Shown here: in pieces, positions 3,297 to 17,532 of the stretch
How positions within the stretch are numbered: position 1 is the first letter of the stretch
How the letters are laid out: each line of letters opens with the position of its first letter
Assembly (NCBI GenBank): GCA_963718515.1
Contig: OY970354.1
Coordinates: 366,942-430,941 of the forward strand
Direction: 5' to 3'
Length of the DNA stretch: 64,000 nucleotides
From: an uncultured bacterium
GTDB taxonomy: Bacteria; Patescibacteriota; Minisyncoccia; UBA6257; 2-01-FULL-56-20
Notes under the pieces: generated by a model
Seen by the model: the letters and a program-made list of their open reading frames with translations, nothing else
Databases searched by the model: none
What the model was told of the DNA's origin: nothing
Made by a program: the position numbers and the translations under genes

Positions 3297-3380
3297 CTCC
3301 GTGTTTTTTCTTAGGTTTCTCCGTCATTTCTGTTGTTTCGCTTATATGTATATTTGCCCTTTTTCGATTTCATTTCAAAT

Positions 3381-3427
3381 GCCAAAGTGTTGATAACTTT
3401 TATTTCGGCAGTTATCCACACTTTGGC
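3381..3427. repeat. 17-bp inverted repeat (gccaaagtgttgataac / gttatccacactttggc) with 13-bp spacer
   Basis: One mismatch between arms. The left arm is repeated directly at 16182..16199. Confidence 0.6.
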
Positions 3428-4295: not shown

Positions 4296-4565
4296 ATGGT
4301 CAAAAAGATTTCTCTTTGGCTTTCGGGCGCTGGCGCTGCGATCGTTGGCCTCATTGGGGCTGCGGCCGCTCACGCGCAGTCCATCCCGGCAGGCGCTTTG
4401 GCGGTCCCCACCTCTACGGTTCAGGATCTCCTAGCGTCGGTCAGTAACGTGTTCACCGATCCGGGTATTCTCGGCATGGTGATTATCGCTGCTGCACTGC
4501 CGATCGTCTTCTGGTTCGCTCGCCAAGTCATTGGCTTGCTGCCGAAGTCGCGCGCAGCCCGCTAG
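4296..4565 (+). CDS. small secreted protein with C-terminal TM anchor (pilin-like topology)
   Basis: 89 aa. Signal peptide ending AHAQ and C-terminal hydrophobic segment. C-terminal module DLLASVSNVFTDPGIL…FWFARQVIGLL is shared with 4851..5462. Confidence 0.5.
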   Translation: MVKKISLWLSGAGAAIVGLIGAAAAHAQSIPAGALAVPTSTVQDLLASVSNVFTDPGILGMVIIAAALPIVFWFARQVIGLLPKSRAAR

Positions 4566-4623
4566 CATCTCACCCCATCTCACGGGCGAGGGGATGTCGT
4601 GAGAACGTCCCTTCACCCGTGAT

Positions 4624-4854
4624 ATGAAAAAGAAAATTATCACAATTTCGTTTGTTGCCTTGATTCTGATCGCCGCGGAATTTTGGTGGGCCGTGTTGAC
4701 GTTGCCTTGGCCACTAGTCGTCGCCATATATGCGTACATGGCTCATGTCCTCGTTTTGGGGTTCTTGGAAATCGCAGTGGTTGCCCTTGTTATTCCGCTC
4801 GTATTTTATCTCGTCCACGGGATCATCAATCTCGTCCGCTCAAAAAAGAAATGA
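4624..4854 (+). CDS. small integral membrane protein (2 TM)
   Basis: 76 aa, very hydrophobic. Its stop overlaps the next start codon (ATGA). Confidence 0.45.
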   Translation: MKKKIITISFVALILIAAEFWWAVLTLPWPLVVAIYAYMAHVLVLGFLEIAVVALVIPLVFYLVHGIINLVRSKKK

Positions 4855-5462
4855 AGAAAATTATATACACAATTTTATTACTCCTTCCCATTCTGCTTTC
4901 TGCGGCACCAGCTTTTGCTGCCTTATCAACAACCCCCGCCAGTTCGGATAATTTAAACTCATTGCAGATTACCGTTACCGGCAATGATAATCGCCGCGTC
5001 ATTCTCGTTGACTATGCAGGCATCATCGTGGGCGATACGGATCAAAGCCACGGCTATCCTTACCCCGATACCGACGGAACATACAGCCCTTCGCAATTAG
5101 GCTTTACGTCAAGTGGTTATGGAACCTACACAATTATCAGTACAGTTCAATCCGAAAATGGACATGGCAGCTGCACACCGGGTAATACCATCGTGAGCTG
5201 TATCGGCATGATTAATTACGGAAGCGGCTATTACAACGAAAGCACGTTTAATCTTTTTGCTCCTCCGGCACCGGTAACAATCAATTCGGGCGTGCTTGTG
5301 TTGCCGTCATCTGATACCCACGATCTTTTGGCAAGCATCACGAATGTGATGGACGGTGCAGGACTGCTTGAGATCCTTGTTCTCGCAGCAGGAGTGCCAT
5401 TAGCCTTTTGGTTTATGAGAGAGATCATCGCCTTAAACTACCAGAATAAAAAACAAAAATGA
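4851..5462 (+). CDS. secreted protein with conserved pilin-like C-terminal module
   Basis: ATG at 4851 gives signal peptide MKKIIYTILLLLPILLSAAPAFA. C-terminal DLLASITNVMDGAGLLEILVLAAGVPLAFWFMREIIAL is paralogous to 4296..4565. Confidence 0.5.
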   Translation: MKKIIYTILLLLPILLSAAPAFAALSTTPASSDNLNSLQITVTGNDNRRVILVDYAGIIVGDTDQSHGYPYPDTDGTYSPSQLGFTSSGYGTYTIISTVQSENGHGSCTPGNTIVSCIGMINYGSGYYNESTFNLFAPPAPVTINSGVLVLPSSDTHDLLASITNVMDGAGLLEILVLAAGVPLAFWFMREIIALNYQNKKQK

Positions 5463-5701
5463 AAAAGATTTTTATAACCATTTCAATATTGGGTATCACC
5501 GCATTCATGCCCCTTTTGGCGTTCGCGCAGGTTGCTACAGACAGCATTCAGCTGCCGTCCGATTTCACCGCTGATGTTTTGACGCAATCAACTGCTTTAC
5601 TAACCAATCTCGAAGGCTACATGAGCCTCATCGTGGGCGTACTTCTTGCGCTCGTCGTCGTTGAATTTGTGATCGGCGCAATCAGACATCGCGGGCAATA
5701 A
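5459..5701 (+). CDS. small secreted protein with C-terminal TM anchor (paralog family)
   Basis: 80 aa with signal peptide and C-terminal TM. ATGA overlap with the upstream gene. Confidence 0.5.
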   Translation: MKKIFITISILGITAFMPLLAFAQVATDSIQLPSDFTADVLTQSTALLTNLEGYMSLIVGVLLALVVVEFVIGAIRHRGQ

Positions 5702-5709
5702 CATGAGCC

Positions 5710-7038
5710 ATGAAAAAATATATTCTCATAGCGTTAATGGTAGTGGCGGGATCGCTTGTACTCTCCTCGCACTCTGCCTTTGCGTTCAGTCTTGAAGAAC
5801 CCCAAAGCTTCGTCCAACCGGATACGATATTTCTCGATCAGAATGGCAATTTAGAAATTCAGTGGCAAAAAATTCAATTAGGGTTCGGGGGATATGATCT
5901 GCCGGGCGGTATCATGGTTTCGATCAATGGGACAAGCACTGATCCGGAATTGAGCTACAACGGCCCGTATGCCGGATGGTCGGCGGGCGGCCATGTGCTT
6001 ACGCATGGCGGCGTCGGCACCGGTGGACCGTGCGCGCCCGGATTCGGAGGGAATTACAGCACTGCAAGCGAAGCGCCTTATGGCAACACCTACGGGCCAA
6101 TAAGCACGGTATGGAACGCGGATACCAATTCTTTTGTGAGCACGGTAGGCATGACGGAAGCCACGCCGATTTATCTCACGTTTTTTAACTACAACGGATA
6201 TACGTGCGGCATCAGCGAATCAGAACCAACCGACGGCAGCACCTACTGGCAGGTATTTTATTTAAATTCCGTTGAAGAACCCGTACAGCCGGAATTTTTG
6301 CAACCATTCGACGGCGCAGTGATTGGCCAATTCCCAAACTGGGATTTTTATTTATCAAACAACTCCACAAGTTCACAAAGTGGCGTCGTAACTGTCCACT
6401 TCGGCACCGGTCCCGGCAATCTTACACTCACCGCTTCGACGACTTATACCGATCTTCCCGCGGGAACCGATACCGAACTCACGATTCCCGAAACATATCA
6501 ATTCACCACCCCGCAGGGGCCGAGTTCAAGCATATGGTATGCCGACATTGAAGTGGCGAACACCTCAACCGATTTTGATATTACGGGATCAGTCATCAGT
6601 TTCACCTTCGAGAATAATGCGCCTACCGTCGCGCCATTTCCAAATGGCATGTTTAATTTCGAGGGAGGGGAAACATCATCCACGGCATCCGATTGCGATT
6701 ACACGACTTCAAGTTTTCTCGATGATCCGGTTGGCAATCTCGAAGAAGCGGGATGCAACATGTTTATCCCGAATTCTTCGGAGCAGGCAGATCTCTACGA
6801 TTCATTTCACGGCACATGGGGCAACCTCTCGACAAAGATTCCCTTTGGCTACGCTGCGATCATCACAACAGCATTCACTAATTTTCAAGAGGGAACGAAC
6901 GCCAGCACGCTGATGAGCACGACGACCTACGCTGCGCTTTCATCGGTGCTTGATCCATTAAAGACTGGCGTATCATTTTTACTTATTCTCATGCTGGGAT
7001 TTTGGATTTTCAAATTTATTCAGCACATAACGCTATGA
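5710..7038 (+). CDS. large secreted protein with C-terminal TM anchor
   Basis: 442 aa. Signal peptide ...SHSAFA, S/T/G/N-rich body and C-terminal hydrophobic helix. Confidence 0.55.
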   Translation: MKKYILIALMVVAGSLVLSSHSAFAFSLEEPQSFVQPDTIFLDQNGNLEIQWQKIQLGFGGYDLPGGIMVSINGTSTDPELSYNGPYAGWSAGGHVLTHGGVGTGGPCAPGFGGNYSTASEAPYGNTYGPISTVWNADTNSFVSTVGMTEATPIYLTFFNYNGYTCGISESEPTDGSTYWQVFYLNSVEEPVQPEFLQPFDGAVIGQFPNWDFYLSNNSTSSQSGVVTVHFGTGPGNLTLTASTTYTDLPAGTDTELTIPETYQFTTPQGPSSSIWYADIEVANTSTDFDITGSVISFTFENNAPTVAPFPNGMFNFEGGETSSTASDCDYTTSSFLDDPVGNLEEAGCNMFIPNSSEQADLYDSFHGTWGNLSTKIPFGYAAIITTAFTNFQEGTNASTLMSTTTYAALSSVLDPLKTGVSFLLILMLGFWIFKFIQHITL

Positions 7039-7298
7039 TCGTCTATTGGATATTAAAAATATTTGTATACCTCTTGAGCCTCATCACGGCGCCGCTCTTG
7101 TTATTGCCTACAGCATCCTTGTCGGTGGATCTCACCGGCACGCTCACCCAAGCGGGCAATTATCTGGCGCTATTCGACATATTTTTGCCCGTAGGAACGC
7201 TTTTAACGGTCTTTGGCATCATTGTCTCGATCGAGGGAGGATATTTCAGCTACAAGGTCGTAAAGTGGATCTATAACAAGATACCGGGAGTAACCTAA
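7035..7298 (+). CDS. small integral membrane protein
   Basis: ATG at 7035 overlaps the upstream stop (ATGA). Three predicted TM helices. Confidence 0.4.
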   Translation: MIVYWILKIFVYLLSLITAPLLLLPTASLSVDLTGTLTQAGNYLALFDIFLPVGTLLTVFGIIVSIEGGYFSYKVVKWIYNKIPGVT

Positions 7299-7343: not shown

Positions 7344-8183
7344 ATGGCGAATGAACTAACACCTTCGAGCCCGCACAAGGACTTTGAGAGCATTAAGAAA
7401 ATTGACGAAAACGGGATTGAGTATTGGGAAGCTCGTGAATTAATGCCGGTTTTGGGTTATGAAAACTGGCAAAAAGCAGAGGAGGTTATTGCTAGGGCTG
7501 CCAAAGCCTGTATTAACAGCGGTCAGGATGTGGATAACCATTTTAACCAGACGGTTAAAATGGTGAATATTGGCTCAAACACAGTAAGAGAAGTAAGAAA
7601 TTATAAGCTCGATAGGTACGCTTGTTACCTTATCGCTCAAAACGGCGATCCGAAAAAACACGAAATAGCGACGGCTCAAACATACTTTGCAATTCAGACG
7701 CGACGGCAGGAGATTTTTGAACAATTGTCAGATAGCGAAAAAAGACTATTTATCCGTGGCGAAGTATCTGATCGCAACAAAAAACTTTTTAAGACAGCGC
7801 GACGAGCTGGAGTCAGTAAATTTGGTTTGTTTAACGACGCAGGCTATAAAGGTCTTTATGGTGTACCCTTAGCAGATGTTGAAAAAAAGAAAGGGATAAA
7901 AAAGGGAGAGCTACTTGATCATGCTGGCGCAACGGAGCTTGCTGCTAACTTGTTTCGTATAACACAAACCGATGAGAAAATAGCTAAGGATAAAATATAT
8001 GGGCAAGAAGCGGCTTCGAGAGCTCACTTCATGGTGGGCGGTAAAGTTAGACAAACCATTAAAGACATTGGTGGTGTTCTGCCGGAGGAATTGTCTACTG
8101 AAAAAAGTATCAAAGAAGTAAAAAAGGAAATTAAGCTTCTCAAAAAAGAGGAAAATAAAAAGATTAAGGGATTTAAAAAATAA
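7344..8183 (+). CDS. dinD: DNA-damage-inducible protein D-like (Bro-N domain) protein
   Basis: N-terminal 120 aa align with E. coli DinD/Bro-N family (…ENGIEYWEARELMPVLGYENWQKAEEVI…YACYLIAQNGDPKK…AQTYFAIQTRRQE). Lysine-rich C-terminus. Confidence 0.7.
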   Translation: MANELTPSSPHKDFESIKKIDENGIEYWEARELMPVLGYENWQKAEEVIARAAKACINSGQDVDNHFNQTVKMVNIGSNTVREVRNYKLDRYACYLIAQNGDPKKHEIATAQTYFAIQTRRQEIFEQLSDSEKRLFIRGEVSDRNKKLFKTARRAGVSKFGLFNDAGYKGLYGVPLADVEKKKGIKKGELLDHAGATELAANLFRITQTDEKIAKDKIYGQEAASRAHFMVGGKVRQTIKDIGGVLPEELSTEKSIKEVKKEIKLLKKEENKKIKGFKK

Positions 8184-8228: not shown

Positions 8229-9433
8229 CCCCATCTTCCCGTCCGAATGGCGTCATTGCGGTTGGTCATAAAAATCAACTCTAAAAAATGAAAACGCTTT
8301 CTTACGAGGAATATCAGGAAAAAGTATCGAACCTTAAAAATATGGACGACGTGGCGAGCTTCGTAAAGGAGCTCGTTGCTCCGGCCGTTGAAATAATCAC
8401 CGAAGAACGGCCGCCCGCGGCGACCTTCACAAAGCACAAGAGGATTAAAACCAACCTTCCGATCCCGAAGAGATATGAGATCGCGGAAAATGACGTGGAG
8501 CAGAACATCATCGCGCTCTATGCGCGGGGACTTACCACGCGCGACATTACAAGCTATCTCAAAGAGCATCACGGGATTGAGGTATCTCAAGCGACCATTT
8601 CCTCGATCACGGACAAAATGTATCCGCTCATCAAGGAATGGCAAACGCGCCCGCTATCGTCCGTGTATCCCTTCATTTACCTCGACGGCTTGCACTTTAA
8701 GGTGCGAGAATCGGGCAAGATCGTGAACCGGTGTGCCTATATCGTCCTCGGCGTGAACTCGCAGGGCTATAAGGAAGTGCTGGGTATCTGGATAGGGGAA
8801 ACCGAAGGGGCGAAGTTCTGGATGCACGTCTTGAACGAGATCAAAAACCGTGGCGTGGAAGATATTTTGATCGCTTGCATTGACGGCCTCAAAGGATTCT
8901 CCGAAGCCATCAATGCCATCTATCCGGAAGCGCAGGTGCAGCAGTGCATCGTGCATCAGATCAGGCACACGGTTAAATTCTTGCCCCACAAGGACCGCGA
9001 GGCGTTTTGTAATGACCTCAAGGCCGTCTACGGCGCGCTGAATGAAGAAACGGGGCGAGACGCATTGCAGAAGCTCAAGGCGAAGTGGCCACGCTACCAG
9101 CCGTACCTTCGTTCATGGGAAGAAAAATGGAACGAGCTCATGCCGTTCTTTGAGTATCCCGAAGCGATCAGAAAGAGTATCTACACGACAAACGCGATCG
9201 AGAGCTTGAATCATCAGTTTCGCAAAGTTACGAAGACCACGACTGTCTTTCCGCATGATGAATCGCTGGAGAAGTTACTGTGGCTCGCGCAAGACGACAT
9301 TGCGAAGCGGTGGATACACACTGTCCGCCGGTGGGGAGAGATCGTCATGCAATTGATGATCCTTTTCCCCGGCAAAATAGAACTCTAATAAAACTAACAG
9401 CTAATCGCACTGGCGCCTTCGGATAAGATGGGA
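8229..9433. mobile_element. IS256-family insertion sequence
   Basis: Mutator-type transposase flanked by imperfect ~30-bp terminal inverted repeats (cccatcttcccgtccgaatggcg… / …cgccagtgcg…ccgaaggataagatggg reverse-complemented). Confidence 0.6.
8288..9388 (+). CDS. IS256-family (mutator-type) transposase
   Basis: 366 aa with the conserved C-terminal YTTNAIESLNHQFRK motif and the DDE region typical of IS256. Confidence 0.85.
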   Translation: MKTLSYEEYQEKVSNLKNMDDVASFVKELVAPAVEIITEERPPAATFTKHKRIKTNLPIPKRYEIAENDVEQNIIALYARGLTTRDITSYLKEHHGIEVSQATISSITDKMYPLIKEWQTRPLSSVYPFIYLDGLHFKVRESGKIVNRCAYIVLGVNSQGYKEVLGIWIGETEGAKFWMHVLNEIKNRGVEDILIACIDGLKGFSEAINAIYPEAQVQQCIVHQIRHTVKFLPHKDREAFCNDLKAVYGALNEETGRDALQKLKAKWPRYQPYLRSWEEKWNELMPFFEYPEAIRKSIYTTNAIESLNHQFRKVTKTTTVFPHDESLEKLLWLAQDDIAKRWIHTVRRWGEIVMQLMILFPGKIEL

Positions 9434-9795
9434 AAATCTGGGGGGCTTCCCAAATTCCCCCAAAGGTGCTAATTTTTAAGTACAAATTAATATGTAATAG
9501 GTAGCCTAAACCCCGCGAGTAATCGCGTGGCATGGCAACAGAACCGATGAGAGACAAAAAGCTCCTAGTCAGAGCACTCTCATCGGTCATATCTCGAAAG
9601 GGATATGGGTGTCGCAAGGCATCGCTGGCTGGGAGCTTTTTGCGTCAAGCCGGCACGACTAACCTATTGCACTTAGGTCGAAAAGATTTAAAATCAAAGG
9701 TAAGGAGATGCCAGCACCCCGCGGCATTCTATAATATGTTTATAATTTTTGGCACGCGTAGTATCTTGAAAAACTTAGGCATAGTTTTCAAGAAT

Positions 9796-10224
9796 ATGTG
9801 TAACAATTGCCACAACGAAAAGTATTGGGTCTTGACCCGTACCACGAGGTGGTTTACGTTATTTTTTATACCTATTTTTCCAACCTCATCTAGGTATTCG
9901 TTGAGCTGTCCTGTCTGCAAATACGGGATAAAACTAAATCAGGAACAGATTGAGAAATATAAACCCATCGCGGAGGCGAACACACTTTTGGCAAATGGCG
10001 CAATCACTCAAGAAGAATATCAAGAACGCCTTAATCTTCCGAAAACGGTTCAAAGCGATGTTTCGGTCCCTGAATCAGTTGCTGCTCCTAGTCTTGTGTC
10101 TGCTGCCGTTTCTACTCAAGCGGCGGTTCGTGCTCAAACCCTAGCTGCGTATTGCAAGGAATGTGGAACACGATCGGACGGAGGAAAATTCTGTGGTCAA
10201 TGCGGAAATTTAATGACTGCCTAA
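9796..10224 (+). CDS. zinc-ribbon domain protein
   Basis: N-terminal CNNCHN…CPVCKYG and C-terminal CKECG…CGQCG zinc ribbons. An upstream in-frame ATG at 9735 is an alternative start. Confidence 0.45.
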   Translation: MCNNCHNEKYWVLTRTTRWFTLFFIPIFPTSSRYSLSCPVCKYGIKLNQEQIEKYKPIAEANTLLANGAITQEEYQERLNLPKTVQSDVSVPESVAAPSLVSAAVSTQAAVRAQTLAAYCKECGTRSDGGKFCGQCGNLMTA

Positions 10225-10231
10225 TAAACCC

Positions 10232-10426
10232 ATGACCATCATTTATGATTTTCTGATTAACTATGGCTATCCGATCCTTTGTGCGGGATCATTTTTAGCC
10301 GGTCTTTATTATTGGGACATTCGACCCGATTTTCGGAAAGAGACGATGTTTTGTCCTAGCTGCGGTACCCTCATTAAAAAGGGCAGTAAATTTTGTGCAA
10401 AATGTGGCCAAAAAGTTGAAATGTAA
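10232..10426 (+). CDS. small zinc-ribbon protein
   Basis: Contains CPSCG…CAKCG. May initiate at the internal ATG at 10346, giving MFCPSCG…. Confidence 0.4.
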   Translation: MTIIYDFLINYGYPILCAGSFLAGLYYWDIRPDFRKETMFCPSCGTLIKKGSKFCAKCGQKVEM

Positions 10427-10431
10427 CTTTA

Positions 10432-12297
10432 ATGAAGGACCAATTTTGTACAGCTTGCGGCGCGAAGATAAAAGAAGGAGTTAAATTTTGCACGAGCTGT
10501 GGCAAGTCCATTAACGCAAAGGCGAGTGATTCGGATTCTAAAATTAAGCATCACGTTTCAGTACCGATAGACAGTCCATCGCCAGTGCATCCCGCGCCTT
10601 CCGAAGAAACGGCAAAAAAGCATGGAAATGGGGGATGGATAGCCGCTCTTATTGTGGCCGCCGTTGTTCTTATTATTATCTTTGCCTCAATTTTTGATCA
10701 TAGTGGAAATACTAATGGCACCTCTGCTAAGTCAGTAAATTCCACTTCGGCCAGTAATAATGTCCAAGCGTCAGTCGTGGGTATCTATTGTGATAATGAT
10801 GAAGGTGGATCTGGTACGATGTTCACTACCGATGGAACCGTCCTTACTAATAATCACGTGATCACAGGCGCAACGTCGTGTAAGGTTACAATCCCGAATC
10901 CTACGACCGGAGGCATAGCAGAAATATATGAAGCAACGCCAGTTGTTACTCCAAAGCTAAGCAAGGAATATGATATAGCCACAGTAAAAATTACCGGTTC
11001 GTATACTGATGCTAGCGGCACCACGTGGGGAAGTTATCCTACTACCTTTACTGCATTTACGTTGCCGAGCACTTGTAACACTAGCACCCCTTCCCAGCTC
11101 GGCGATACAGTTAAGATTTATGGCTATCCTATTACCAGTGGAGAACTTAATCTTACGGAGACGGACGGAATTGTAAGCAGCTTTGCAGAGGATGGAGATA
11201 TACTCACTTCGGCTAAGGTTGATAGCGGTAATTCGGGTGGGCTTGCAGTGGATCAAAACGGTTGCTGGCTGGGAATACCATCAGCGGTGGTTTCTGGTAA
11301 CTATCAAAATCTAGGCGTAATTATTCCGGGAAGTGTAGTGGAAAATATTATGAGTGGTGCTCCTGCTAAATATGAACCTGCCGTTGCTAGTTCCGGAGCA
11401 AGCGCTCTTGTTGCGGCTGTTGCAGCATCTACTCCCCAGGAAACTAATGATCAAGTTTGCCAAGATAATTATGGATCGAATAGTCAATTTGATGGAAACA
11501 CCGCTAGCGATGGTACCCCATACTGTGATTGTAAGAGTGGTTATGAATGGGATGGAAGTGGCGATGCCTGTGCTACTCAAGTATCTCTACAGCAATCCTG
11601 TCAAAGCAGCTACGGAGTAGGAAGTTATGCTTATGAAAATGGTACAAAGGCACAATGTGGTTGCTCGACTGGGTATCAATGGAATTCGAACCAATCAGCC
11701 TGCGTGGCGGTTCAAGAAACCCCCCAACAGGTTTGCCAAGACAATTATGGTTATAACAGTGAGTATTCGGGTCAAACAAATAATCAAGGTGGTCCAGTAT
11801 GCCAGTGTCAGTCAGGTTATGTTTGGAATAGTGCTCAAACTGCGTGCGTAGCGCCGCCTAGTTGCACAGCATTTTCTACTTATAATCCATCAACCAATCA
11901 ATGCGAATGTGATTCTGGATATATAGCTGATGGCGATGTTTGTGAATCAGCCACAACCTATTGCCAAGACTCGGAGGGATACGGCGCCAATTATGACGCT
12001 GATACCAATACCTGCGGATGCAGCGCGGGTTATAGTTATAGCGACGGCCGATGTGAAGATGATTATTCGTATTGTACAGATTTGGATGGAGCTGGAGCAA
12101 CGTATGATGCTGGAACAAACTCATGCACATGCGAAAGCGGCTATGTTTCGAGCGGTGGCCGATGTGTATCAGGTTATACTTATTGTGAAGATTACGGTGG
12201 CTATGGCGATCAGTACGATTCTGCCACGGGGCAATGTACCTGCGAATATGGGTATGAATGGAACGGATCAAGCTGCGTATATGAGCCTAATTATTAA
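10432..12297 (+). CDS. zinc-ribbon / TM / trypsin-like serine protease protein with C-terminal Cys-rich tandem repeats
   Basis: 621 aa. N-terminal CTACG…CTSCG, one TM helix, S1-like protease core (TNNHV…DSGNSGG) and about eight ~40-aa repeats C.DNYG…C.C..GY.W…. Confidence 0.7.
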   Translation: MKDQFCTACGAKIKEGVKFCTSCGKSINAKASDSDSKIKHHVSVPIDSPSPVHPAPSEETAKKHGNGGWIAALIVAAVVLIIIFASIFDHSGNTNGTSAKSVNSTSASNNVQASVVGIYCDNDEGGSGTMFTTDGTVLTNNHVITGATSCKVTIPNPTTGGIAEIYEATPVVTPKLSKEYDIATVKITGSYTDASGTTWGSYPTTFTAFTLPSTCNTSTPSQLGDTVKIYGYPITSGELNLTETDGIVSSFAEDGDILTSAKVDSGNSGGLAVDQNGCWLGIPSAVVSGNYQNLGVIIPGSVVENIMSGAPAKYEPAVASSGASALVAAVAASTPQETNDQVCQDNYGSNSQFDGNTASDGTPYCDCKSGYEWDGSGDACATQVSLQQSCQSSYGVGSYAYENGTKAQCGCSTGYQWNSNQSACVAVQETPQQVCQDNYGYNSEYSGQTNNQGGPVCQCQSGYVWNSAQTACVAPPSCTAFSTYNPSTNQCECDSGYIADGDVCESATTYCQDSEGYGANYDADTNTCGCSAGYSYSDGRCEDDYSYCTDLDGAGATYDAGTNSCTCESGYVSSGGRCVSGYTYCEDYGGYGDQYDSATGQCTCEYGYEWNGSSCVYEPNY

Positions 12298-12308
12298 AAG
12301 CTAAAAAT

Positions 12309-12782
12309 ATGTTCTGCTCTAGCTGTGGATCAAAATTAGAAGATGGCACGAAATTTTGTGGTACTTGTGGCGCCCCGGCCGGTAAAAAAATAGCTATAGA
12401 ATCGGCAGTAGCGCCCACTCACTCCATGACATCTTTAAAGGTACTATCAATCATAGGAATTATCTTCGCGGTAATTTGTTTTCTTTGTGCGGCCGGGCTT
12501 ATTAATAGCGATGCCGTCGCTGCGGCTGGCTGGGGAATTTATGGTGAGGTTTATCTCTTAGCACTTTCGATTGTGGCTTTGGTTAAATCAGGCTCACAGC
12601 GTACGAAAGCTTTACGGGCGTTATCAATCATAGGAATTATTGTTGCTGCGCTTTGTTTCTTTTTTGAGGTTATTTTGCTAAGTAGCAATAGTAACTTTGA
12701 TGCGGCTGGCTGGGGCTTTTATACCTATATTTATTTATTAATTTTCTCTATCGTCGCCTTAGTTAAATCAGGTAAAAAATAA
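12309..12782 (+). CDS. zinc-ribbon membrane protein with internal duplication
   Basis: MFCSSCG…CGTCG ribbon followed by two copies of a ~50-aa two-TM unit (ALSIIGII…IVALVKSG). Confidence 0.55.
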   Translation: MFCSSCGSKLEDGTKFCGTCGAPAGKKIAIESAVAPTHSMTSLKVLSIIGIIFAVICFLCAAGLINSDAVAAAGWGIYGEVYLLALSIVALVKSGSQRTKALRALSIIGIIVAALCFFFEVILLSSNSNFDAAGWGFYTYIYLLIFSIVALVKSGKK

Positions 12783-12819
12783 AGATGCAGATTTCGATCT
12801 AGCCTCGCCGCTTTCAATA

Positions 12820-13299
12820 ATGAATAACGAGATCAATTTTAGTAGACAGCTTATTAAGGGGAAAATCGTTGAGATGATTTTCGAGATGATGATGCGCGAG
12901 ATGGATCGTGTTACTGTTTTGCGAGCCGGATATGAATATACCCATCCGGAATTGGCGCAATATCAGCAGCTCCTACAAGATAAGGGCCGCGAAGTACTTA
13001 AATTTTTTGAGCACAACCCTGATTTTATTTTATTCAAAAAGGATAAAACGCAGCTCTATCTCGTTGAAGTTAAATATCGGCACTATCTTGATCCCGAAAA
13101 AATCAGAGAGATAGCTGAGGAAAAATTAGAACGCTCGGAACACATTTGGCTTTTTCTTGCGACGCCCGATGGCTTCTTTTTTTCTCAATGCAAGGATATT
13201 GCTCAAATGGGTGCTATCCAGCCCCTCTCTCCCAATTGGGTTTCCGAAGAAGTCCAGAGGAATTATCTTACGCTCCTGAAAGAATTTATAAAGCAGTAG
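12820..13299 (+). CDS. hypothetical protein with PD-(D/E)xK-like motif
   Basis: 159 aa. …HNPDFILFKKDKTQLYLVEVKYR fits a PD…ExK nuclease core. This is inference only. Confidence 0.4.
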   Translation: MNNEINFSRQLIKGKIVEMIFEMMMREMDRVTVLRAGYEYTHPELAQYQQLLQDKGREVLKFFEHNPDFILFKKDKTQLYLVEVKYRHYLDPEKIREIAEEKLERSEHIWLFLATPDGFFFSQCKDIAQMGAIQPLSPNWVSEEVQRNYLTLLKEFIKQ

Positions 13300-13308
13300 C
13301 GTTTTCTT

Positions 13309-13533
13309 TTATTCGCTGAGTTGTTCCAACTGATATAACACTCTTGCTTCGATCTGTGCGATCCTCGTACCGCTGATCCCAAAATGCGCGCCACATTCTT
13401 TTAGGGTATGCGGTTTCCCGTCGGTAAGGCCGTGCTTGTATTCAAAGACTTCAAAATAGCGAGGGTGTAGCCCTAACGAAGGCTTAGTCGCCAGATATTT
13501 CTTGTTTATCTCGCTCTGGACTTCCTTTTGCAT
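13309..13533 (-). CDS. sigma-70 region-4-like HTH protein
   Basis: 74 aa. …LTDGKPHTLKECGAHFGISGTRIAQIEARVLYQLEQ resembles sigma-70 region 4.2. Confidence 0.5.
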   Translation of the reverse strand: MQKEVQSEINKKYLATKPSLGLHPRYFEVFEYKHGLTDGKPHTLKECGAHFGISGTRIAQIEARVLYQLEQLSE

Positions 13534-14493: not shown

Positions 14494-15840
14494 ATGCTCT
14501 CCATCTCATCGCCAGCGAAGAAAAAAGGTATCGCTTACTATCGTCATTCGGCCGAAGATAAGCAGGAGAATTCGGTTCCGATCCAAAGACAGCATACCCA
14601 AAAATTGACTGGTGAGAATAATGTTGAGCTTCTTCACGAGGAAGCTGATGAAGGCAAGTCGGGACTTCTCGCTGCTCGACCGGGATTCGAGAGGCTTTTT
14701 AAGGATTGGATCTTGAACCCTGATGCCCCATATTTTGAGTATGTATTTGTCTATGACGTTTCCCGGTGGGGTAGATTTCAAGATCCTGATGAGGCGGGAT
14801 ATTATGAGTTTCTTTGTAAACAAAAAGGTAAGAAAGTTATTTATGTTTCGCGGGGGTTTCCAAAAGAAGAACAACCCCAGCTCATTTCTCATCTTCAAAC
14901 ATCCATTGAGCGCTATATGGCGGCGGAGTACAGTCGGCAGTTGAGCGACAAGGTGTTTTATGGATGCGTGAAAGTTTCGGAGCAGGGATATTCGGCCGGT
15001 GGTACTTCGTGCTATGGGATGACGCGCCTTCTTTTGGATGCCAATAAGAAACCGATCAAAGCGCTCAAGCGTGGGGAATGGAAATCATTATCGAACGAAC
15101 GCGTTACGTTCGCACCGGCAAATGATGAAACCACGGAAGCGGTAAAAGAAATGTTTGTCCTGCTCGTGAAGAAATGGCGATCGCCGAAAGAGATCGCAGA
15201 AATTTTAAATGAGAGGCAGATTCCATCGGCGACTGGTGGATTATGGAATAGCCAAAAAGTAATTCATGTGCTTACGAATGAGACCTATACCGGCTCGCGC
15301 ATTTATAACAAGACATGGGGGCGCTTGAAGCAAAAGATGCGGCAAAATCCTCGGAATGAATGGGTGATCAAACCGAACGCCTTTGATGCCATTGTCGAGA
15401 GCGATGTTTTCCGCGAAGCGCAGGAACATTTATATTGGCTTCTCGATTCAAAATGGAAGCGGGGGATCTATGCGACTAATCGCGTGAGAAAGTTAATCCG
15501 CGAGGATCTCCGCGGCATACTCTCGAAACGAGGTATCGCATATGATGACATCGAAGAAACATTGAATAAAATCCCGATCGTTTTTGGTGTTCGTTTTTAT
15601 CACAATTCAATTCCTCATTGGTGCTTCTTGATTGAAGAAACGGCTCGCAACTATGATTTTGTCATTGGAGTAAGTGTCGCTATGGATCAGCGAGAACCAA
15701 TCGACAGATTTTTTCTTATTCCGACGAACGATTTTAATGGCGTAAACTTTAACGTTTTTTCCGAAACGGATGATTGCTATGGGAAATATAAAATAGAGGA
15801 AAGTAAGGTTGAAGAAAAAGTGCTTTCGTTTATTGCCTAA
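14494..15840 (+). CDS. large serine recombinase
   Basis: N-terminal resolvase motif YYRHSAEDKQENSVPIQRQ…FVYDVSRWGR plus recombinase domain (…LWNSQKVIHVLTNETYTGSRIYNK). Confidence 0.8.
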   Translation: MLSISSPAKKKGIAYYRHSAEDKQENSVPIQRQHTQKLTGENNVELLHEEADEGKSGLLAARPGFERLFKDWILNPDAPYFEYVFVYDVSRWGRFQDPDEAGYYEFLCKQKGKKVIYVSRGFPKEEQPQLISHLQTSIERYMAAEYSRQLSDKVFYGCVKVSEQGYSAGGTSCYGMTRLLLDANKKPIKALKRGEWKSLSNERVTFAPANDETTEAVKEMFVLLVKKWRSPKEIAEILNERQIPSATGGLWNSQKVIHVLTNETYTGSRIYNKTWGRLKQKMRQNPRNEWVIKPNAFDAIVESDVFREAQEHLYWLLDSKWKRGIYATNRVRKLIREDLRGILSKRGIAYDDIEETLNKIPIVFGVRFYHNSIPHWCFLIEETARNYDFVIGVSVAMDQREPIDRFFLIPTNDFNGVNFNVFSETDDCYGKYKIEESKVEEKVLSFIA

Positions 15841-16126: not shown

Positions 16127-16181
16127 CCGTCTGACGGTCCCACGCCTTCATTTTAACTCCCGTAGTCAAGGTCGATCAAAA

Positions 16182-16199
16182 GCCAAAGTGTTGATAACT
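16182..16199. repeat. 18-bp direct repeat copy (gccaaagtgttgataact) of the site at 3381
   Basis: Exact 18/18 match to 3381..3398. No inverted partner here. Confidence 0.7.
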
Positions 16200-16443: not shown

Positions 16444-17532
16444 TTGGTGGGCTTTGTGTTTATGAAATTAAGCGAAGCAATCAAAAATTTTATTTCGTTA
16501 AGAGAGGCGAAAGGACCACGCGCACGAAAAACCGCCGCGCGGTATTTAACCGTGCTCCGCCCTTTCTGCCTGTGTATGCAAGATCCGGAAGTTGAAGATC
16601 TCGACATCGAGCATGTGCTTTGGTACCTGAATGAGATGGAACGATTGGGATGGAAACCAAACGGAAGAAATCTCGCAGCGCTCGGATTAAGAAAATTTTT
16701 CGAGTACTGCAACCTGCGTGGCTATCCGGTTTTTAACGAGCAGCTCATTCCGGTGCCGGAGCGTGCGACGAATATCCCGCGGGTGGCAGATGAGCAATCA
16801 TTTGAAAAAATTATTGAGCAACTTCCCGCAGATTCAAACAGGCCGAACCATATTCGTAACCGGGCGCTCGTGATGCTCTTGTGGGATACTGGCGCACGTA
16901 ATGGTGAACTATGTTCTTTGAACACAGCTGATTTGCAATTTAGTAAAGACAATTCAGGATCGGCTATCATCAAAACCGAAAAGTCTCGTGGTCGTCGGCC
17001 GATTCGACAAATTTTCTGGACACCGAAAACCGGTAAGGCGTTAAAGTTGTGGATCAAAAAGAAAGCTGAATTAGAAAAGCAATTTACGTTTGCTGATCCA
17101 GAAGCATTGTTTGTAACCATTCTCAAATGTCCGCAAGCTCCTTTGCGTGGTCGCCGGATGGTGAACACGAGTGTTTGCGAAGTGATGCGTGTTTTGTCTA
17201 ATCAAGCCGGATTGGCGACCGTGATCAATGCGCACGGCGCTCGACATGCAATGGGCCGCGACGCAGCAAAGGCATTACGAAGCGATACAGCCGTTGCAAA
17301 TATTCTTGGCCACTCAAACGTTGAGAGCTCGTACATTTATACGATGCTTTGGGGTGATGATCTGAAAGAGGAATGGCAAGAGGTTATGAAAAAACGCGGA
17401 GTGCCAATGGGTCGCCCGCCGGATACCTCATCGAGTTTTCCTAAACCTCGTCAATCACGATCGGACACGTTGCCGGGCAGATTGCGACCGCACCCAGTCG
17501 CTACATCTCGGCATGGCAGGATTATGAAATAA
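16444..17532 (+). CDS. int: tyrosine recombinase / phage integrase
   Basis: Conserved R…HxxR…Y motifs (…WDTGARNGELCSL…, HGARHAMG, LGHSNVESSYIYT). True start may be the ATG at 16462 (MKLSEAIK…). Confidence 0.85.
   Translation: MVGFVFMKLSEAIKNFISLREAKGPRARKTAARYLTVLRPFCLCMQDPEVEDLDIEHVLWYLNEMERLGWKPNGRNLAALGLRKFFEYCNLRGYPVFNEQLIPVPERATNIPRVADEQSFEKIIEQLPADSNRPNHIRNRALVMLLWDTGARNGELCSLNTADLQFSKDNSGSAIIKTEKSRGRRPIRQIFWTPKTGKALKLWIKKKAELEKQFTFADPEALFVTILKCPQAPLRGRRMVNTSVCEVMRVLSNQAGLATVINAHGARHAMGRDAAKALRSDTAVANILGHSNVESSYIYTMLWGDDLKEEWQEVMKKRGVPMGRPPDTSSSFPKPRQSRSDTLPGRLRPHPVATSRHGRIMK

What the first reader, a model, noticed from the sequence alone, without database searches (positions are those of the whole stretch)
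9735..12782. Four consecutive genes each beginning with a zinc-ribbon (M..C..CG….KFC..CG), one fused to a trypsin-like protease and Cys-rich tandem repeats
The products of 9796..10224, 10232..10426, 10432..12297 and 12309..12782 all open with a C-x2-C…C-x2-C zinc ribbon, followed by TM segments.

The 621-aa member adds an S1-type serine protease core (TNNHV / D / DSGNSGG) and about eight tandem ~40-aa Cys-rich repeats (C.DNYG.N…C.C..GY.W). The last member holds an internal duplication of a two-TM unit.

A zinc-ribbon on the cytoplasmic side with the protease and repeats on the extracytoplasmic side suggests a signalling or anchoring family. It looks expanded by local duplication on the element.
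Basis: seen in the sequence. Interest (0 to 1): 0.55.

Follow-up and report, generated by a model that had tools for sequence, protein, structure and literature searches.

The report
Zinc-ribbon membrane-protein operon with surface protease
Four neighbouring genes in a small Patescibacteria-type genome encode zinc-ribbon-tagged membrane proteins around a membrane-anchored protease on an EGF-like stalk, and this gene set recurs in related uncultured bacteria, often behind an orphan structured RNA (LOOT), with no function yet known.

Summary
The only four ORFs in the 64-kb window with a CxxC…CxxC motif are these four consecutive genes, and each passes a Pfam zinc-ribbon threshold.

- **Ribbon position:** it is N-terminal only in the protease (10432-12297) and the 4-TM protein (12309-12782). 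In 10232-10426 it is C-terminal.
- **First gene:** it starts at 9736, not 9796. It carries an N-terminal Zn_ribbon_15 module and a second ribbon at its C-terminus.
- **Protease:** it has an HtrA/DegS-like domain with an invariant H/D/S triad and no PDZ domain. Seven (not eight) four-Cys EGF-like repeats follow it.
- **Not a local duplication:** across 36 related metagenomic loci the protease sits in co-directional arrays of ribbon-tagged membrane proteins. Ribbons occur in 65 of 124 array neighbours against 8 of 270 ORFs outside (p≈1e-30).
- **LOOT RNA:** a LOOT RNA (Rfam RF03000, 9503-9623) heads the operon here and in 9 other loci. I found an extra covarying 18-bp helix reaching 9642.
- **Setting:** the cassette lies in a low-GC island with recombinases.

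The function is inferred only. My reading is a cytoplasmically ribbon-linked membrane complex presenting an extracellular protease. I rate it a new variant of known kinds, of moderate interest.

The parts
9503..9642 (+). LOOT RNA (Rfam RF03000, 9503-9623) plus a 3' extension (9625-9642) that pairs with the centre of the RNA (9553-9570). A U-run follows. It lies about 95 nt upstream of the O1 start.
   Evidence: Rfam cmscan gives 91.4 bits against a gathering score of 46.4, E 1e-16. The extra 18-bp helix is 91.7% paired across 14 instances, with 10 of 18 pairs showing compensatory changes and 0 of 500 shuffles as good.
9736..10224 (+). O1, 162 aa. It has an N-terminal Zn_ribbon_15 module (C22/C25 … invariant WFTLFFIP … C58/C61; nt 9799-9918), a SHOCT-like segment, a variable linker and a C-terminal zinc ribbon (aa 140-156; nt 10153-10203). 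There is no full-length TM helix.
   Evidence: Pfam Zn_ribbon_15 E 1.6e-12; SHOCT 24.6 bits, below its cut-off of 27. Full-length orthologs occur in 11 loci and in 59 database clusters, all 147-187 aa apart from two fragments and all starting MxIIFGW.
10232..10426 (+). O2, 64 aa. A small membrane protein with one weakly hydrophobic N-terminal segment followed by a C-terminal zinc ribbon (aa 41-58; nt 10352-10405).
   Evidence: Pfam Zn_ribbon_3 E 7.7e-8 and Zn_Ribbon_1 E 1.2e-7. A 54-aa homolog (42% over 55 aa) lies in the cassette of L083/L084.
10432..12297 (+). O3, 621 aa. In order: zinc ribbon (aa 6-23; nt 10447-10500), disordered linker, single TM (aa 69-91; nt 10636-10704), HtrA/DegS-like S1 protease (Pfam aa 126-282; nt 10807-11277; triad H142, D181, S268), and seven 4-Cys EGF-like repeats (aa 343-615; nt 11458-12276).
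   Evidence: Pfam. Alignment of 28 homologs with invariant triad and Cys. AF2 model with pLDDT 74. Foldseek to DegS-deltaPDZ at E 7e-15. Repeat-only model with pLDDT 84.6 matches NELL, Pfs25 and EMR2 EGF arrays. Repeat parsing.
12309..12782 (+). O4, 157 aa. An N-terminal zinc ribbon (aa 3-20; nt 12315-12368) followed by four TM segments formed by an internal duplication of a 2-TM unit.
   Evidence: Pfam Zn_Ribbon_1 E 2.4e-7. TM scan. Duplication at 54% identity, E 7e-19. DNA repeats D1 and D2.
12820..13299 (+). O5, 159 aa. A possible PD-(D/E)xK (TnsA-N/restriction-endonuclease-like) protein directly downstream on the same strand. It may be co-transcribed. Membership of the cassette is uncertain.
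   Evidence: Weak Pfam Tn7_TnsA-like_N hit, E 7.8e-4. A 44%-identical homolog in L085 is preceded by its own LOOT RNA.
8288..9388 (+). Mutator/IS256-family transposase gene immediately upstream of the LOOT RNA.
   Evidence: Pfam Transposase_mut E 2.1e-88.
3375..3398 (.). Left copy of a 24-nt direct repeat (TCAAATGCCAAAGTGTTGATAACT). Here it is part of an inverted repeat with 18-nt arms. It is a candidate element boundary or recombination site.
   Evidence: the repeat finder family D7, 23 of 24 identical, 12,801 nt apart. Sequence read.
16176..16199 (.). Right copy of the 24-nt direct repeat. It lies between the serine recombinase gene (14494-15840) and the tyrosine integrase gene (16444-17532).
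   Evidence: Recombinase domains. Phage_integrase.

Best explanation
**Shown**
- The region is one co-directional gene cassette, LOOT RNA leader then O1, O2, O3, O4 (perhaps O5). It sits inside a low-GC, recombinase-bearing island of a genome of about 0.83 Mb that looks Patescibacteria-type.
- Its core is O3, a type-II membrane protein. A cytoplasmic zinc ribbon and one TM helix carry an HtrA/DegS-fold serine protease with an intact triad.
- In O3 the usual PDZ domains are replaced by a rod of seven disulfide-type four-Cys EGF-like modules.
- O1, O2 and O4 are unrelated small proteins (O2 and O4 membrane proteins, O1 without a full-length TM helix) that each carry the same kind of ribbon on the side inferred to be cytoplasmic, at whichever terminus faces inward.
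- The arrangement of protease plus 1-5 ribbon-tagged membrane proteins plus an O1-type two-ribbon protein is conserved across divergent relatives.

**Inferred**
- The ribbons act as cytoplasmic handles that bring these proteins together. O1 has two zinc modules, a SHOCT-like oligomerisation segment and no true TM, so it is the likely membrane-peripheral hub.
- The assembled complex presents the protease on its EGF-like stalk at the cell surface. There it would cleave extracellular substrates, either envelope proteins or proteins of the host or partner cell.
- Expression is set by the LOOT element in the 5' leader.

The substrate, zinc binding, ribbon-ribbon contacts and LOOT's regulatory input are all untested.
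For: - **Motif clustering:** the four ribbon ORFs are the only ones in 64 kb, and all pass Pfam thresholds.
- **Protease:** the triad and 4 Cys of the protease domain, plus the ribbon Cys, are invariant in 28 homologs. Its fold matches DegS-deltaPDZ (E 7e-15, 24-29% identity), and no PDZ hit was found.
- **Repeats:** they are confidently modelled (pLDDT 84.6) and match tandem EGF arrays. The same repeat occurs in 1,451 representative clusters, mostly behind signal-peptide-like N-termini.
- **Conserved cassette:** the upstream adjacent gene has a ribbon in 24 of 29 loci and the downstream one in 10 of 23. Array neighbours score 65 of 124 against 8 of 270 outside, Fisher p 1.6e-30.
- **O1 partner:** orthologs lie next to the protease in 11 loci, and the family has a uniform architecture.
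- **LOOT:** it lies on the same strand at the head of the array in 10 loci, with the first start codon 17-73 nt after the extended RNA in 13 of the 14 instances; in this window the O1 start is about 95 nt after it.
- **Mobile context:** GC is 44-47% against 54% elsewhere, and recombinases and a transposase are present.
Against: - There is no direct evidence for ribbon-ribbon or ribbon-O1 contacts. No multimer prediction was possible.
- The neighbouring membrane domains differ between loci (DUF805, RDD, TPR, DUF6709, the O4 type). What is conserved is a class of proteins rather than a fixed orthologous complex.
- PF13240-type ribbons are common N-terminal caps of small membrane proteins in many phyla, so part of the clustering could reflect shared regulation only.
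- LOOT is not specific to this cassette. It also precedes nuclease-like genes.
- LOOT is missing from about half of the loci that have enough upstream sequence.
- The organism assignment rests on names of homologs only.
Confidence: 0.5

Rival explanations
1. The cassette is mobile-element cargo acting in conflict. It would be a surface or exclusion module that degrades incoming phage, pilus or competitor proteins, or one that modifies the host-cell surface for the element's benefit, rather than a housekeeping envelope complex.
For: - The cassette lies in a low-GC island with an IS256-type transposase, ParB, a serine recombinase and a tyrosine integrase.
- Mobile-element hallmark genes lie within 8 kb in 4 of 7 annotated loci.
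- An identical protease protein occurs in two different genomic contexts, L083 and L084.
- LOOT also precedes PD-(D/E)xK-like genes on two IMG/VR contigs that carry a terminase and a reverse transcriptase.
- The adjacent Bro-N protein matches the PADLOC candidate PDC-S13.
Against: - There is no PADLOC system match beyond generic protease-domain similarity.
- No relatives of the protease were found in IMG/VR.
- Some loci are flanked by ordinary chromosomal genes (L084).
- This rival is compatible with the structural model above. It differs only in purpose.
Confidence: 0.15
2. The cassette is a regulated-proteolysis signalling module. The DegS-like protease would act as a site-1 protease on the extracytoplasmic parts of the neighbouring ribbon-TM proteins. 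This would release their cytoplasmic zinc ribbons as nucleic-acid- or protein-binding effectors, in an anti-sigma-like logic.
For: - O3's protease domain is closest to DegS, and it is membrane-anchored like DegS.
- The neighbours have anti-sigma-like topology, with a small cytoplasmic Zn domain, a TM and an outside part.
- A 74-aa sigma-70 region-4-like ORF lies nearby on the opposite strand at 13309-13533, and a similar one is present in L083.
Against: - No site-2 protease (Peptidase_M50), full sigma factor or other transducer is conserved in the annotated loci.
- The ribbons are PF13240-type, not ZAS (HxxxCxxC) domains.
- Several partners (O2, O4) have almost no extracytoplasmic part to cleave.
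- O3 carries the same ribbon itself.
Confidence: 0.12
3. There is no functional unit. The ribbons are a generic cytoplasmic cap or topology determinant of small membrane proteins in these lineages, and the genes merely sit together in an accessory-gene region under a common leader.
For: - Partner families vary between loci.
- NCBIfam knows such '4-Cys prefix' domains on unrelated proteins.
- LOOT heads other kinds of genes too.
Against: - Enrichment next to the protease is very strong: 52% against 3%, p 1.6e-30.
- No other ribbon ORF occurs in the remaining 61 kb of the window.
- O1-type proteins are specifically and repeatedly adjacent to the protease.
Confidence: 0.15
4. The four genes would be a family recently expanded by local duplication on this element.
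For: All four share the same ribbon consensus, FC..CG…KFC..CG.
Against: - No similarity exists outside the ribbon.
- The ribbons are no more similar to each other than to those of other loci.
- No DNA-level repeats link the genes.
- The arrangement pre-exists in distant relatives.
- The only true local duplication is inside O4.
Confidence: 0.03

Closest known systems
HtrA/DegP/DegS serine proteases (MEROPS S1C), especially membrane-anchored DegS
   Same: - It has a chymotrypsin-fold protease domain with a His-Asp-Ser triad.
- Foldseek's best PDB matches are DegS-deltaPDZ, HtrA and Rv0983 (E about 1e-14, 24-29% identity).
- It has an N-terminal membrane anchor with the catalytic domain outside the cytoplasm.
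   Different: - It has no PDZ domain.
- The C-terminus is seven 4-Cys EGF-like repeats.
- It has an extra cytoplasmic zinc ribbon.
- It scores far below the NCBIfam family cut-offs: degP_htrA_DO 48 bits against 416, DegS 22 against 423.
MarP (Rv3671c)-type membrane-tethered S1 proteases of mycobacteria
   Same: It is a TM-anchored extracytoplasmic S1 protease without a PDZ domain, and it contains cysteines. Some relatives in the survey have 3-4 TM segments (RDD-type), as MarP does. What I state about MarP itself is from my own knowledge.
   Different: The sequence similarity is only marginal: NCBIfam MarP_fam_protase 25.6 bits against a cut-off of 250. MarP has no zinc ribbon and no EGF-like repeats.
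PF13240/PF13248/DZR zinc-ribbon-capped membrane proteins (for example B. subtilis YdjG of the pspA-ydjGHI operon; DUF805, RDD and TM2-type proteins)
   Same: It has a short cytoplasmic CxxC…CxxC ribbon fused to one or more TM segments. Partners in related loci are exactly such families: DUF805, RDD and DUF6709. YdjG is described as a zinc-ribbon membrane protein in PMC9239133.
   Different: Here several different ribbon-capped proteins are arrayed with a ribbon-capped protease and a two-ribbon soluble or peripheral protein. No role for the ribbon is established in either case.
Zn_ribbon_15 family (PF17032)
   Same: O1 matches above threshold (48.4 against 28.9). It has the MxIIFGW start and two CxxC knuckles flanking WFTLFFIP.
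   Different: O1 adds a SHOCT-like segment, a linker and a second, C-terminal PF13240-type ribbon. This extended form is the one found beside the protease. No solved structure exists.
Tandem EGF-like domain arrays (NELL1/2 EGF1-6, Plasmodium Pfs25/Pvs25, EMR2, Notch) and TNFR-type Cys-rich domains
   Same: It forms a rod of small disulfide-type beta-hairpin modules. Foldseek gives E 6.6e-6 to 1e-2. Pfam ADGRF3_N passes its threshold (36 bits against 31). Weak profile similarity to NELL1 is seen (E 0.016).
   Different: Each module has four, not six, cysteines, plus a short N-terminal helix. The Pfam EGF models are below threshold (cEGF 22.3 < 26.6; EGF_3 15.9 < 28.5). TM-scores are low because the rods are flexible.
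LOOT RNA motif (Rfam RF03000; from the Weinberg et al. 2017 candidate-RNA survey, PMC5737381)
   Same: It is a full-length match at 91.4 bits against a gathering score of 46.4.
   Different: Rfam types it as 'Gene; sRNA'. Here it lies in the 5' leader of protein-coding arrays on the same strand. It has an additional covarying 18-bp helix to sequence just beyond the Rfam model. I could not read the original supplement to see whether this was already noted.

Membership tests
HtrA/DegP/DegS (S1C) proteases | Chymotrypsin-fold domain with a His-Asp-Ser catalytic triad | tested here: met
   Trypsin_2 E 2.8e-12. H142, D181 and S268 are invariant in 28 homologs. Foldseek to DegS/HtrA at E about 1e-14.
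HtrA/DegP/DegS (S1C) proteases | One or two C-terminal PDZ domains | tested here: not met
   No PDZ family appears in the Pfam scan at E<=1. The C-terminal 280 aa fold as EGF-like repeats.
HtrA/DegP/DegS (S1C) proteases | Score above the curated family cut-offs (NCBIfam degP_htrA_DO, DegS, HtrA) | tested here: not met
   48.4 bits against 416.2 and 22.2 against 423; all others are lower.
Zinc ribbon PF13240/PF13248 (Zn_Ribbon_1/3) | Two CxxC knuckles about 11-12 residues apart that score above the Pfam gathering threshold | tested here: met
   O2 scores 31.7 and 32.0, O3 28.9 and O4 30.7 bits against cut-offs of 25 and 27. O1's C-terminal ribbon alone is sub-threshold (DZR 15.1 < 27.3), but its orthologs carry precomputed PF13240 hits.
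Zinc ribbon PF13240/PF13248 (Zn_Ribbon_1/3) | Actual zinc coordination | not testable with these tools
   This needs metal analysis of purified protein. All four Cys are invariant in the O3 and O1 families.
Zn_ribbon_15 (PF17032) | Profile match above the gathering score | tested here: met
   O1 scores 48.4 bits against 28.9, E 1.6e-12. The conserved architecture is seen in alignment A5.
SHOCT domain (PF09851) | Profile match above the gathering score | tested here: inconclusive
   O1 aa 77-99 score 24.6 bits against a cut-off of 27, E 2e-5. The segment is conserved in orthologs as PIAExNQLLxxGxITxxEY.
EGF-like domains | Six cysteines forming three disulfides per module, and Pfam EGF models above threshold | tested here: not met
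   Each repeat has four Cys. cEGF, EGF_3 and EGF_MSP1_1 are all below their cut-offs; only ADGRF3_N (36 > 31) passes.
EGF-like domains | Small disulfide-rich beta-hairpin fold arranged in tandem rods | tested here: met
   The AF2 repeat model has pLDDT 84.6. Its top Foldseek PDB matches are NELL, Pfs25, EMR2, Notch and uromodulin EGF arrays.
LOOT RNA (RF03000) | Covariance-model score above the Rfam gathering score over the full model | tested here: met
   91.4 bits against 46.4, covering model positions 1-121.
DegS-RseA-RseP-type regulated intramembrane proteolysis | Site-2 protease and a cognate sigma / anti-sigma pair in the system | tested here: not met
   No Peptidase_M50 or full sigma factor is found in the window cassette or in 7 annotated related loci. 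Only a 74-aa sigma70_r4-like ORF lies on the opposite strand.
Known anti-phage defence systems (PADLOC-DB) | Match of cassette proteins to defence-system models | tested here: not met
   O1, O2 and O4 have no hits. O3 shows only protease-domain similarity to RT-Protease_XI (E 1.8e-8).

The most novel reading that the evidence does not exclude
The cassette is a previously unrecognised, lineage-specific (Patescibacteria/CPR) membrane machine. Short cytoplasmic zinc ribbons would be the assembly code. This code would join interchangeable small membrane modules, a two-ribbon hub protein (O1) and a protease on an EGF-like stalk into a surface complex used on the partner or host cell or against invaders. 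LOOT would be its cis-acting 5'-leader switch: the newly seen 18-bp helix plus U-run alternates with the Rfam central hairpin. That would give an orphan RNA motif both an organism and a regulon.
Probability: 0.2. Interest if true: 0.7.

Novelty: new variant of a known kind. Interest (0 to 1): 0.5.

Why it matters
Patescibacteria are tiny bacteria that mostly depend on a host, and almost nothing is known experimentally about their surface machinery. A conserved, mobile operon that puts an active-looking protease on a rigid Cys-rich stalk, surrounded by ribbon-tagged membrane partners, is a concrete candidate for cell-surface remodelling or host interaction.

It also offers a test case for the purpose of the very common 'zinc ribbon + TM' architecture. 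Separately, it places the orphan LOOT RNA in the 5' leaders of defined genes in an identifiable lineage and adds a covarying helix. That makes LOOT's function directly testable.

If the ribbons turn out to be only generic caps, the finding reduces to an unusual domain architecture of an HtrA-like protease.

Tried and rejected
- **GTDB genome scan wasted.** The scan with the full protease alignment chose generic HtrA motifs. A sub-alignment without the catalytic motifs (A2) fixed this for metagenomes.
- **IMG/VR.** The protease scan found no relatives.
- **Loose LOOT DNA pattern in IMG/VR.** It gave about 120 mostly chance matches. After a stricter regex and Rfam, only 2 were true LOOTs. The rest included unrelated group I introns and tRNA arrays.
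- **Repeats.** Tandem Repeats Finder found no DNA tandem repeats in 9500-13000. The protein repeats are too diverged at the DNA level.
- **Family libraries.** PADLOC, PHROGs and NCBIfam gave no informative family for O1, O2 or O4.
- **Solved structures.** The PDB sequence search found no solved relative of O1.
- **Literature.** Searches for the cassette (PF13240/zinc ribbon/Patescibacteria/serine protease) and for LOOT found nothing specific. The supplement of the paper that defined LOOT is not held.
- **Promoters and terminators.** The consensus scan was at or below shuffle expectation and was not used as evidence.
- **Organism names.** The exact-sequence cluster look-up gave none.
- **Frameshift idea.** I considered that O1/O2 might be a frameshifted single gene and rejected it. 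O1 orthologs end at the same place, and O2 has its own small homolog.

Full report

ORF listing and motif scanning show four consecutive plus-strand ORFs, each with one CxxC-x(11-12)-CxxC ribbon of the FC..CG…KFC..CG type. They are 9736-10224 (a 230-aa form from 9532 is also callable), 10232-10426, 10432-12297 and 12309-12782.

Among 85 non-overlapping ORFs of at least 45 aa in the whole 64-kb window, these four are the only ones with such a motif. The clustering is therefore far from chance.

Every one passes a Pfam gathering score for a ribbon family. The would-refute condition 'motifs fail profile significance' is not met.

The second condition, that the ribbons are not N-terminal, is met for two of the four:
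- In O2 the ribbon is C-terminal (aa 41-58 of 64), after a hydrophobic segment.
- In O1 the matching ribbon is also C-terminal (aa 140-156).
- O1's N-terminus carries a different, split zinc module, Zn_ribbon_15 (E 1.6e-12).

**2. Gene by gene**

*O1.* Its orthologs are 147-187 aa, all start MxIIFGW, and align from residue 69 of the long ORF.
- Invariant features are C22/C25, WFTLFFIP, C58/C61, a SHOCT-like PIAExNQLL…ITxxEY segment (24.6 bits, just under its cut-off), a variable linker, and C140/C143/C153/C156.
- It has no full-length TM helix.

*O2.* It is a 64-aa membrane protein. A 54-aa homolog sits in the L083/L084 cassette.

*O3.* In order, it has a ribbon (aa 6-23), a Lys-rich low-confidence linker, one TM (aa 69-91), Trypsin_2 (aa 126-282) and seven repeats of the form C-x(10-21)-CxC-x2-GY-x(4-7)-C between aa 343 and 615.
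- In an alignment of 28 homologs, the triad (H142, D181, S268), four protease-domain Cys and the ribbon Cys are invariant, and most repeat Cys are invariant or nearly so.
- The AF2 model (pLDDT 74) matches DegS-deltaPDZ, HtrA and Rv0983 at E about 1e-14. No PDZ domain is detected.
- A repeat-only model (pLDDT 84.6) matches tandem EGF arrays of NELL, Pfs25, EMR2 and Notch, and TNFR Cys-rich domains.
- A profile of the repeat finds 1,451 representative clusters. Of 144 inspected, 114 have a signal-peptide-like N-terminus and only 2 a protease motif. It is a widespread extracellular module that this protease family has borrowed, which supports an outside location.

*O4.* It is a ribbon plus four TM segments made by a 2-TM duplication (54% identity, E 7e-19; DNA repeats at 72%).

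**3. The arrangement is conserved, not locally duplicated**

The protease has more than 100 homologs (45-65% identity for full-length ones). These are named, where named at all, from Patescibacteria or Paceibacterota MAGs.

Annotated contigs around five homologs show the same theme. A Zn_Ribbon_1 protein, a Zn_ribbon_15 protein and ribbon-DUF805, ribbon-RDD, ribbon-TPR or ribbon-DUF6709 proteins sit immediately beside the protease on the same strand.

A family-specific metagenome scan added 53 loci. Across 36 non-redundant loci:
- the upstream adjacent co-directional gene has a ribbon in 24 of 29 cases;
- the downstream gene has one in 10 of 23;
- 65 of 124 array neighbours have a ribbon, against 8 of 270 ORFs outside the arrays (Fisher p 1.6e-30).

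Both N-terminal and C-terminal ribbons recur. The gene just before an N-ribbon gene often ends in a ribbon.

O1 has full-length orthologs beside the protease in 11 loci. Outside the ribbon, O1-O4 are unrelated to each other. Their ribbons are no closer to one another than to ribbons elsewhere, and no DNA repeats link them. The 'local duplication' reading therefore fails; only O4 contains a true duplication.

**4. A structured RNA heads the operon**

The 5' part of the 230-aa ORF is conserved in other loci. This led to an Rfam scan, which found LOOT RNA (RF03000) at 9503-9623 on the plus strand, at 91.4 bits against a gathering score of 46.4. It is the only copy in the window.

LOOT is also present on the same strand at the 5' head of the ribbon/protease array in L002, L083, L087, L097, L099, L104, L105, L113 and L125. 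That makes 10 of roughly 24 non-redundant loci with enough upstream sequence.

The first ORF begins 17-73 nt after the RNA in 13 of the 14 instances; in this window the ORF-finder offset belongs to the spurious 9532 frame and the O1 start lies about 95 nt after the extended RNA. In the tightest cases (17-36 nt) this leaves little room for a separate promoter, so a 5'-leader role is more likely than the free-standing sRNA implied by Rfam's type.

In all 14 instances the 20-25 nt just beyond the Rfam match pair with the centre of LOOT:
- In this window, 9553-9570 CAAAAAGCTCCTAGTCAG pairs with 9625-9642 CTGGCTGGGAGCTTTTTG.
- The energies are -24 to -38 kcal/mol, and a U-run follows.

On an alignment of the 14 instances this 18-bp helix is 91.7% paired. 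Ten pairs show changes on both sides, 0 of 500 shuffles reach it, and slid registers give 37-54%. The helix overlaps the inner part of Rfam's central hairpin, so the two may alternate.

LOOT is not specific to this cassette:
- in L085 it precedes a homolog of O5;
- on two IMG/VR contigs it precedes a 352-aa PD-(D/E)xK-like gene near a terminase and a reverse transcriptase.

**5. Genomic setting**

GC is 44-47% from about 4 to 18 kb against about 54% elsewhere. The island holds:
- secreted and TM proteins (4296-7298);
- a Bro-N protein;
- an IS256-type transposase (8288-9388);
- the cassette;
- a ParB-like protein;
- a large serine recombinase (14494-15840);
- a tyrosine integrase (16444-17532), next to rpiB.

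A 24-nt direct repeat (23 of 24 identical) at 3375-3398 and 16176-16199 brackets 12.8 kb that includes the cassette. The left copy lies in an inverted repeat with 18-nt arms. These may be recombination sites, but that is unproven.

L087 carries a related cassette, again with an integrase beside rpiB. Four of seven annotated loci have mobile-element hallmark genes within 8 kb. An identical protease occurs in two contexts, L083 and L084.

**6. Mechanism**

*Shown:* the architectures, the conserved triad and cysteines, the conserved gene neighbourhood, the position of LOOT, and the island context.

*Inferred:* ribbons inside and protease plus repeats outside. This rests on the positive-inside rule, the Cys content and the company the repeat keeps. 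My further inferences are these:
- The ribbons tie the proteins together, with O1 as a peripheral hub.
- The protease acts on extracellular substrates from an EGF-like stalk.
- LOOT controls expression in cis.

I put about 0.5 on this package. The rivals are:
- a conflict or exclusion role as mobile-element cargo, which is compatible with the same structure (0.15);
- DegS-like regulated proteolysis of the ribbon-TM neighbours (0.12); no site-2 protease or sigma factor is conserved, and the ribbons are not ZAS domains;
- mere co-location of generically ribbon-capped membrane proteins (0.15); this is contradicted by the strength of the enrichment;
- recent local duplication (0.03).

**7. Comparison with known families**

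- O3 works like a PDZ-less, membrane-tethered HtrA/DegS- or MarP-type protease. It fails the S1C membership tests for PDZ domains and curated cut-offs.
- The ribbons are ordinary PF13240/PF13248 members.
- O1 is a Zn_ribbon_15 member with an added ribbon.
- The repeats are EGF-like in fold but have four Cys and are sub-threshold for the EGF models.
- LOOT is a clear RF03000 member.
- No PADLOC system matches.
- I found no paper describing this cassette or LOOT's function in the searchable library.

**8. Verdict**

- Each component is a member of a known kind.
- The conserved combination appears undescribed: a ribbon-capped protease with an EGF-like stalk, a ribbon-capped partner array, a two-ribbon O1 protein and a LOOT leader.
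- I rate it a new variant of a known kind, interest 0.5.

Noticed in passing
window 9503-9647: LOOT RNA (RF03000) lies between the transposase and O1. The 18 nt just past the Rfam model (9625-9642) form a covarying helix with 9553-9570, followed by a U-run. The same holds in all 14 LOOT instances examined. Its position 17-73 nt before start codons in 13 of the 14 instances (about 95 nt before O1 here) suggests a 5' leader rather than a free sRNA.
   Followed up: yes
window 9532-9735: The 230-aa ORF called by gene finders (P0121, also in the NCBI record) starts inside the LOOT RNA. Orthologs show that the true start is 9736, so the deposited annotation is probably over-extended.
   Followed up: yes
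window 3375-3398 and 16176-16199: A 24-nt direct repeat (23 of 24 identical) lies 12.8 kb apart and brackets the cassette, ParB and the serine recombinase. The left copy is one arm of an 18-nt-arm inverted repeat (3381-3398 / 3410-3427). These may be att, recombination or partition sites.
   Followed up: partly
window 4296-7298: This is a run of co-directional genes for secreted proteins that end in a TM anchor. Three share a '…DLLAS(V/I)xNV… + TM' C-terminus (4296-4565, about 4848-5462, 5459-5701), and there is also a 442-aa secreted protein. None hits Pfam, NCBIfam or PHROGs. They could be pilin- or coat-like proteins of the element.
   Followed up: partly
window 7344-8183: The Bro-N domain protein matches the PADLOC defence candidate PDC-S13 over its full length (E 3e-105). 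It also matches the N-terminal part of a Type I specificity-subunit model.
   Followed up: no
window 12820-13299; L085 3539-4006 (-); L202 4403-5461 (-); L228 1294-2403 (-): O5 is a weak PD-(D/E)xK/TnsA-N-like protein. Its homolog in L085 has its own LOOT RNA upstream. Two IMG/VR contigs have LOOT upstream of a 352-369-aa NucS/PD-(D/E)xK-like gene, next to a terminase, methylases and a reverse transcriptase with DGR-like target genes. LOOT therefore heads several kinds of accessory genes.
   Followed up: partly
window 13309-13533 (-): A 74-aa ORF consists of little more than a sigma-70 region-4 helix-turn-helix (Pfam E 1.8e-5; NCBIfam RpoD/SigB C-terminal hits about 1e-8). A similar small ORF lies upstream of LOOT in L083.
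   Followed up: no
L083 versus L084: The identical 507-aa protease (P0008) and its flanking ribbon genes occur in two contigs with different surroundings. One is next to Fic and AcrVA2-like genes, the other next to ribosomal L10/L12 genes. This is consistent with cassette mobility or strain rearrangement.
   Followed up: no
window 11458-12276 (O3 aa 343-615) and proteins P0186-P0329: The four-Cys repeat is a widespread extracellular module: 1,451 clusters at 50% identity with E<=1e-3, in proteins of 170-2,373 aa. Most have signal peptides and lack a protease. Some begin with HPGNTDS…CHTC or GCCSWHGGV motifs.
   Followed up: partly
window 16444-17532 and L087 9012-10148: A tyrosine integrase sits directly upstream of rpiB/rpe, both in the window and in the Paceibacterota MAG contig DATKGV010000004.1. 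Both also carry a ribbon/protease cassette nearby. This may be a shared integration hot spot.
   Followed up: no
L147, L155, L196, L261 (IMG/VR contigs fetched by a loose DNA pattern): These are unrelated chance hits that contain multiple group I introns (up to four in L147). L158 contains an array of about 20 tRNA genes.
   Followed up: no
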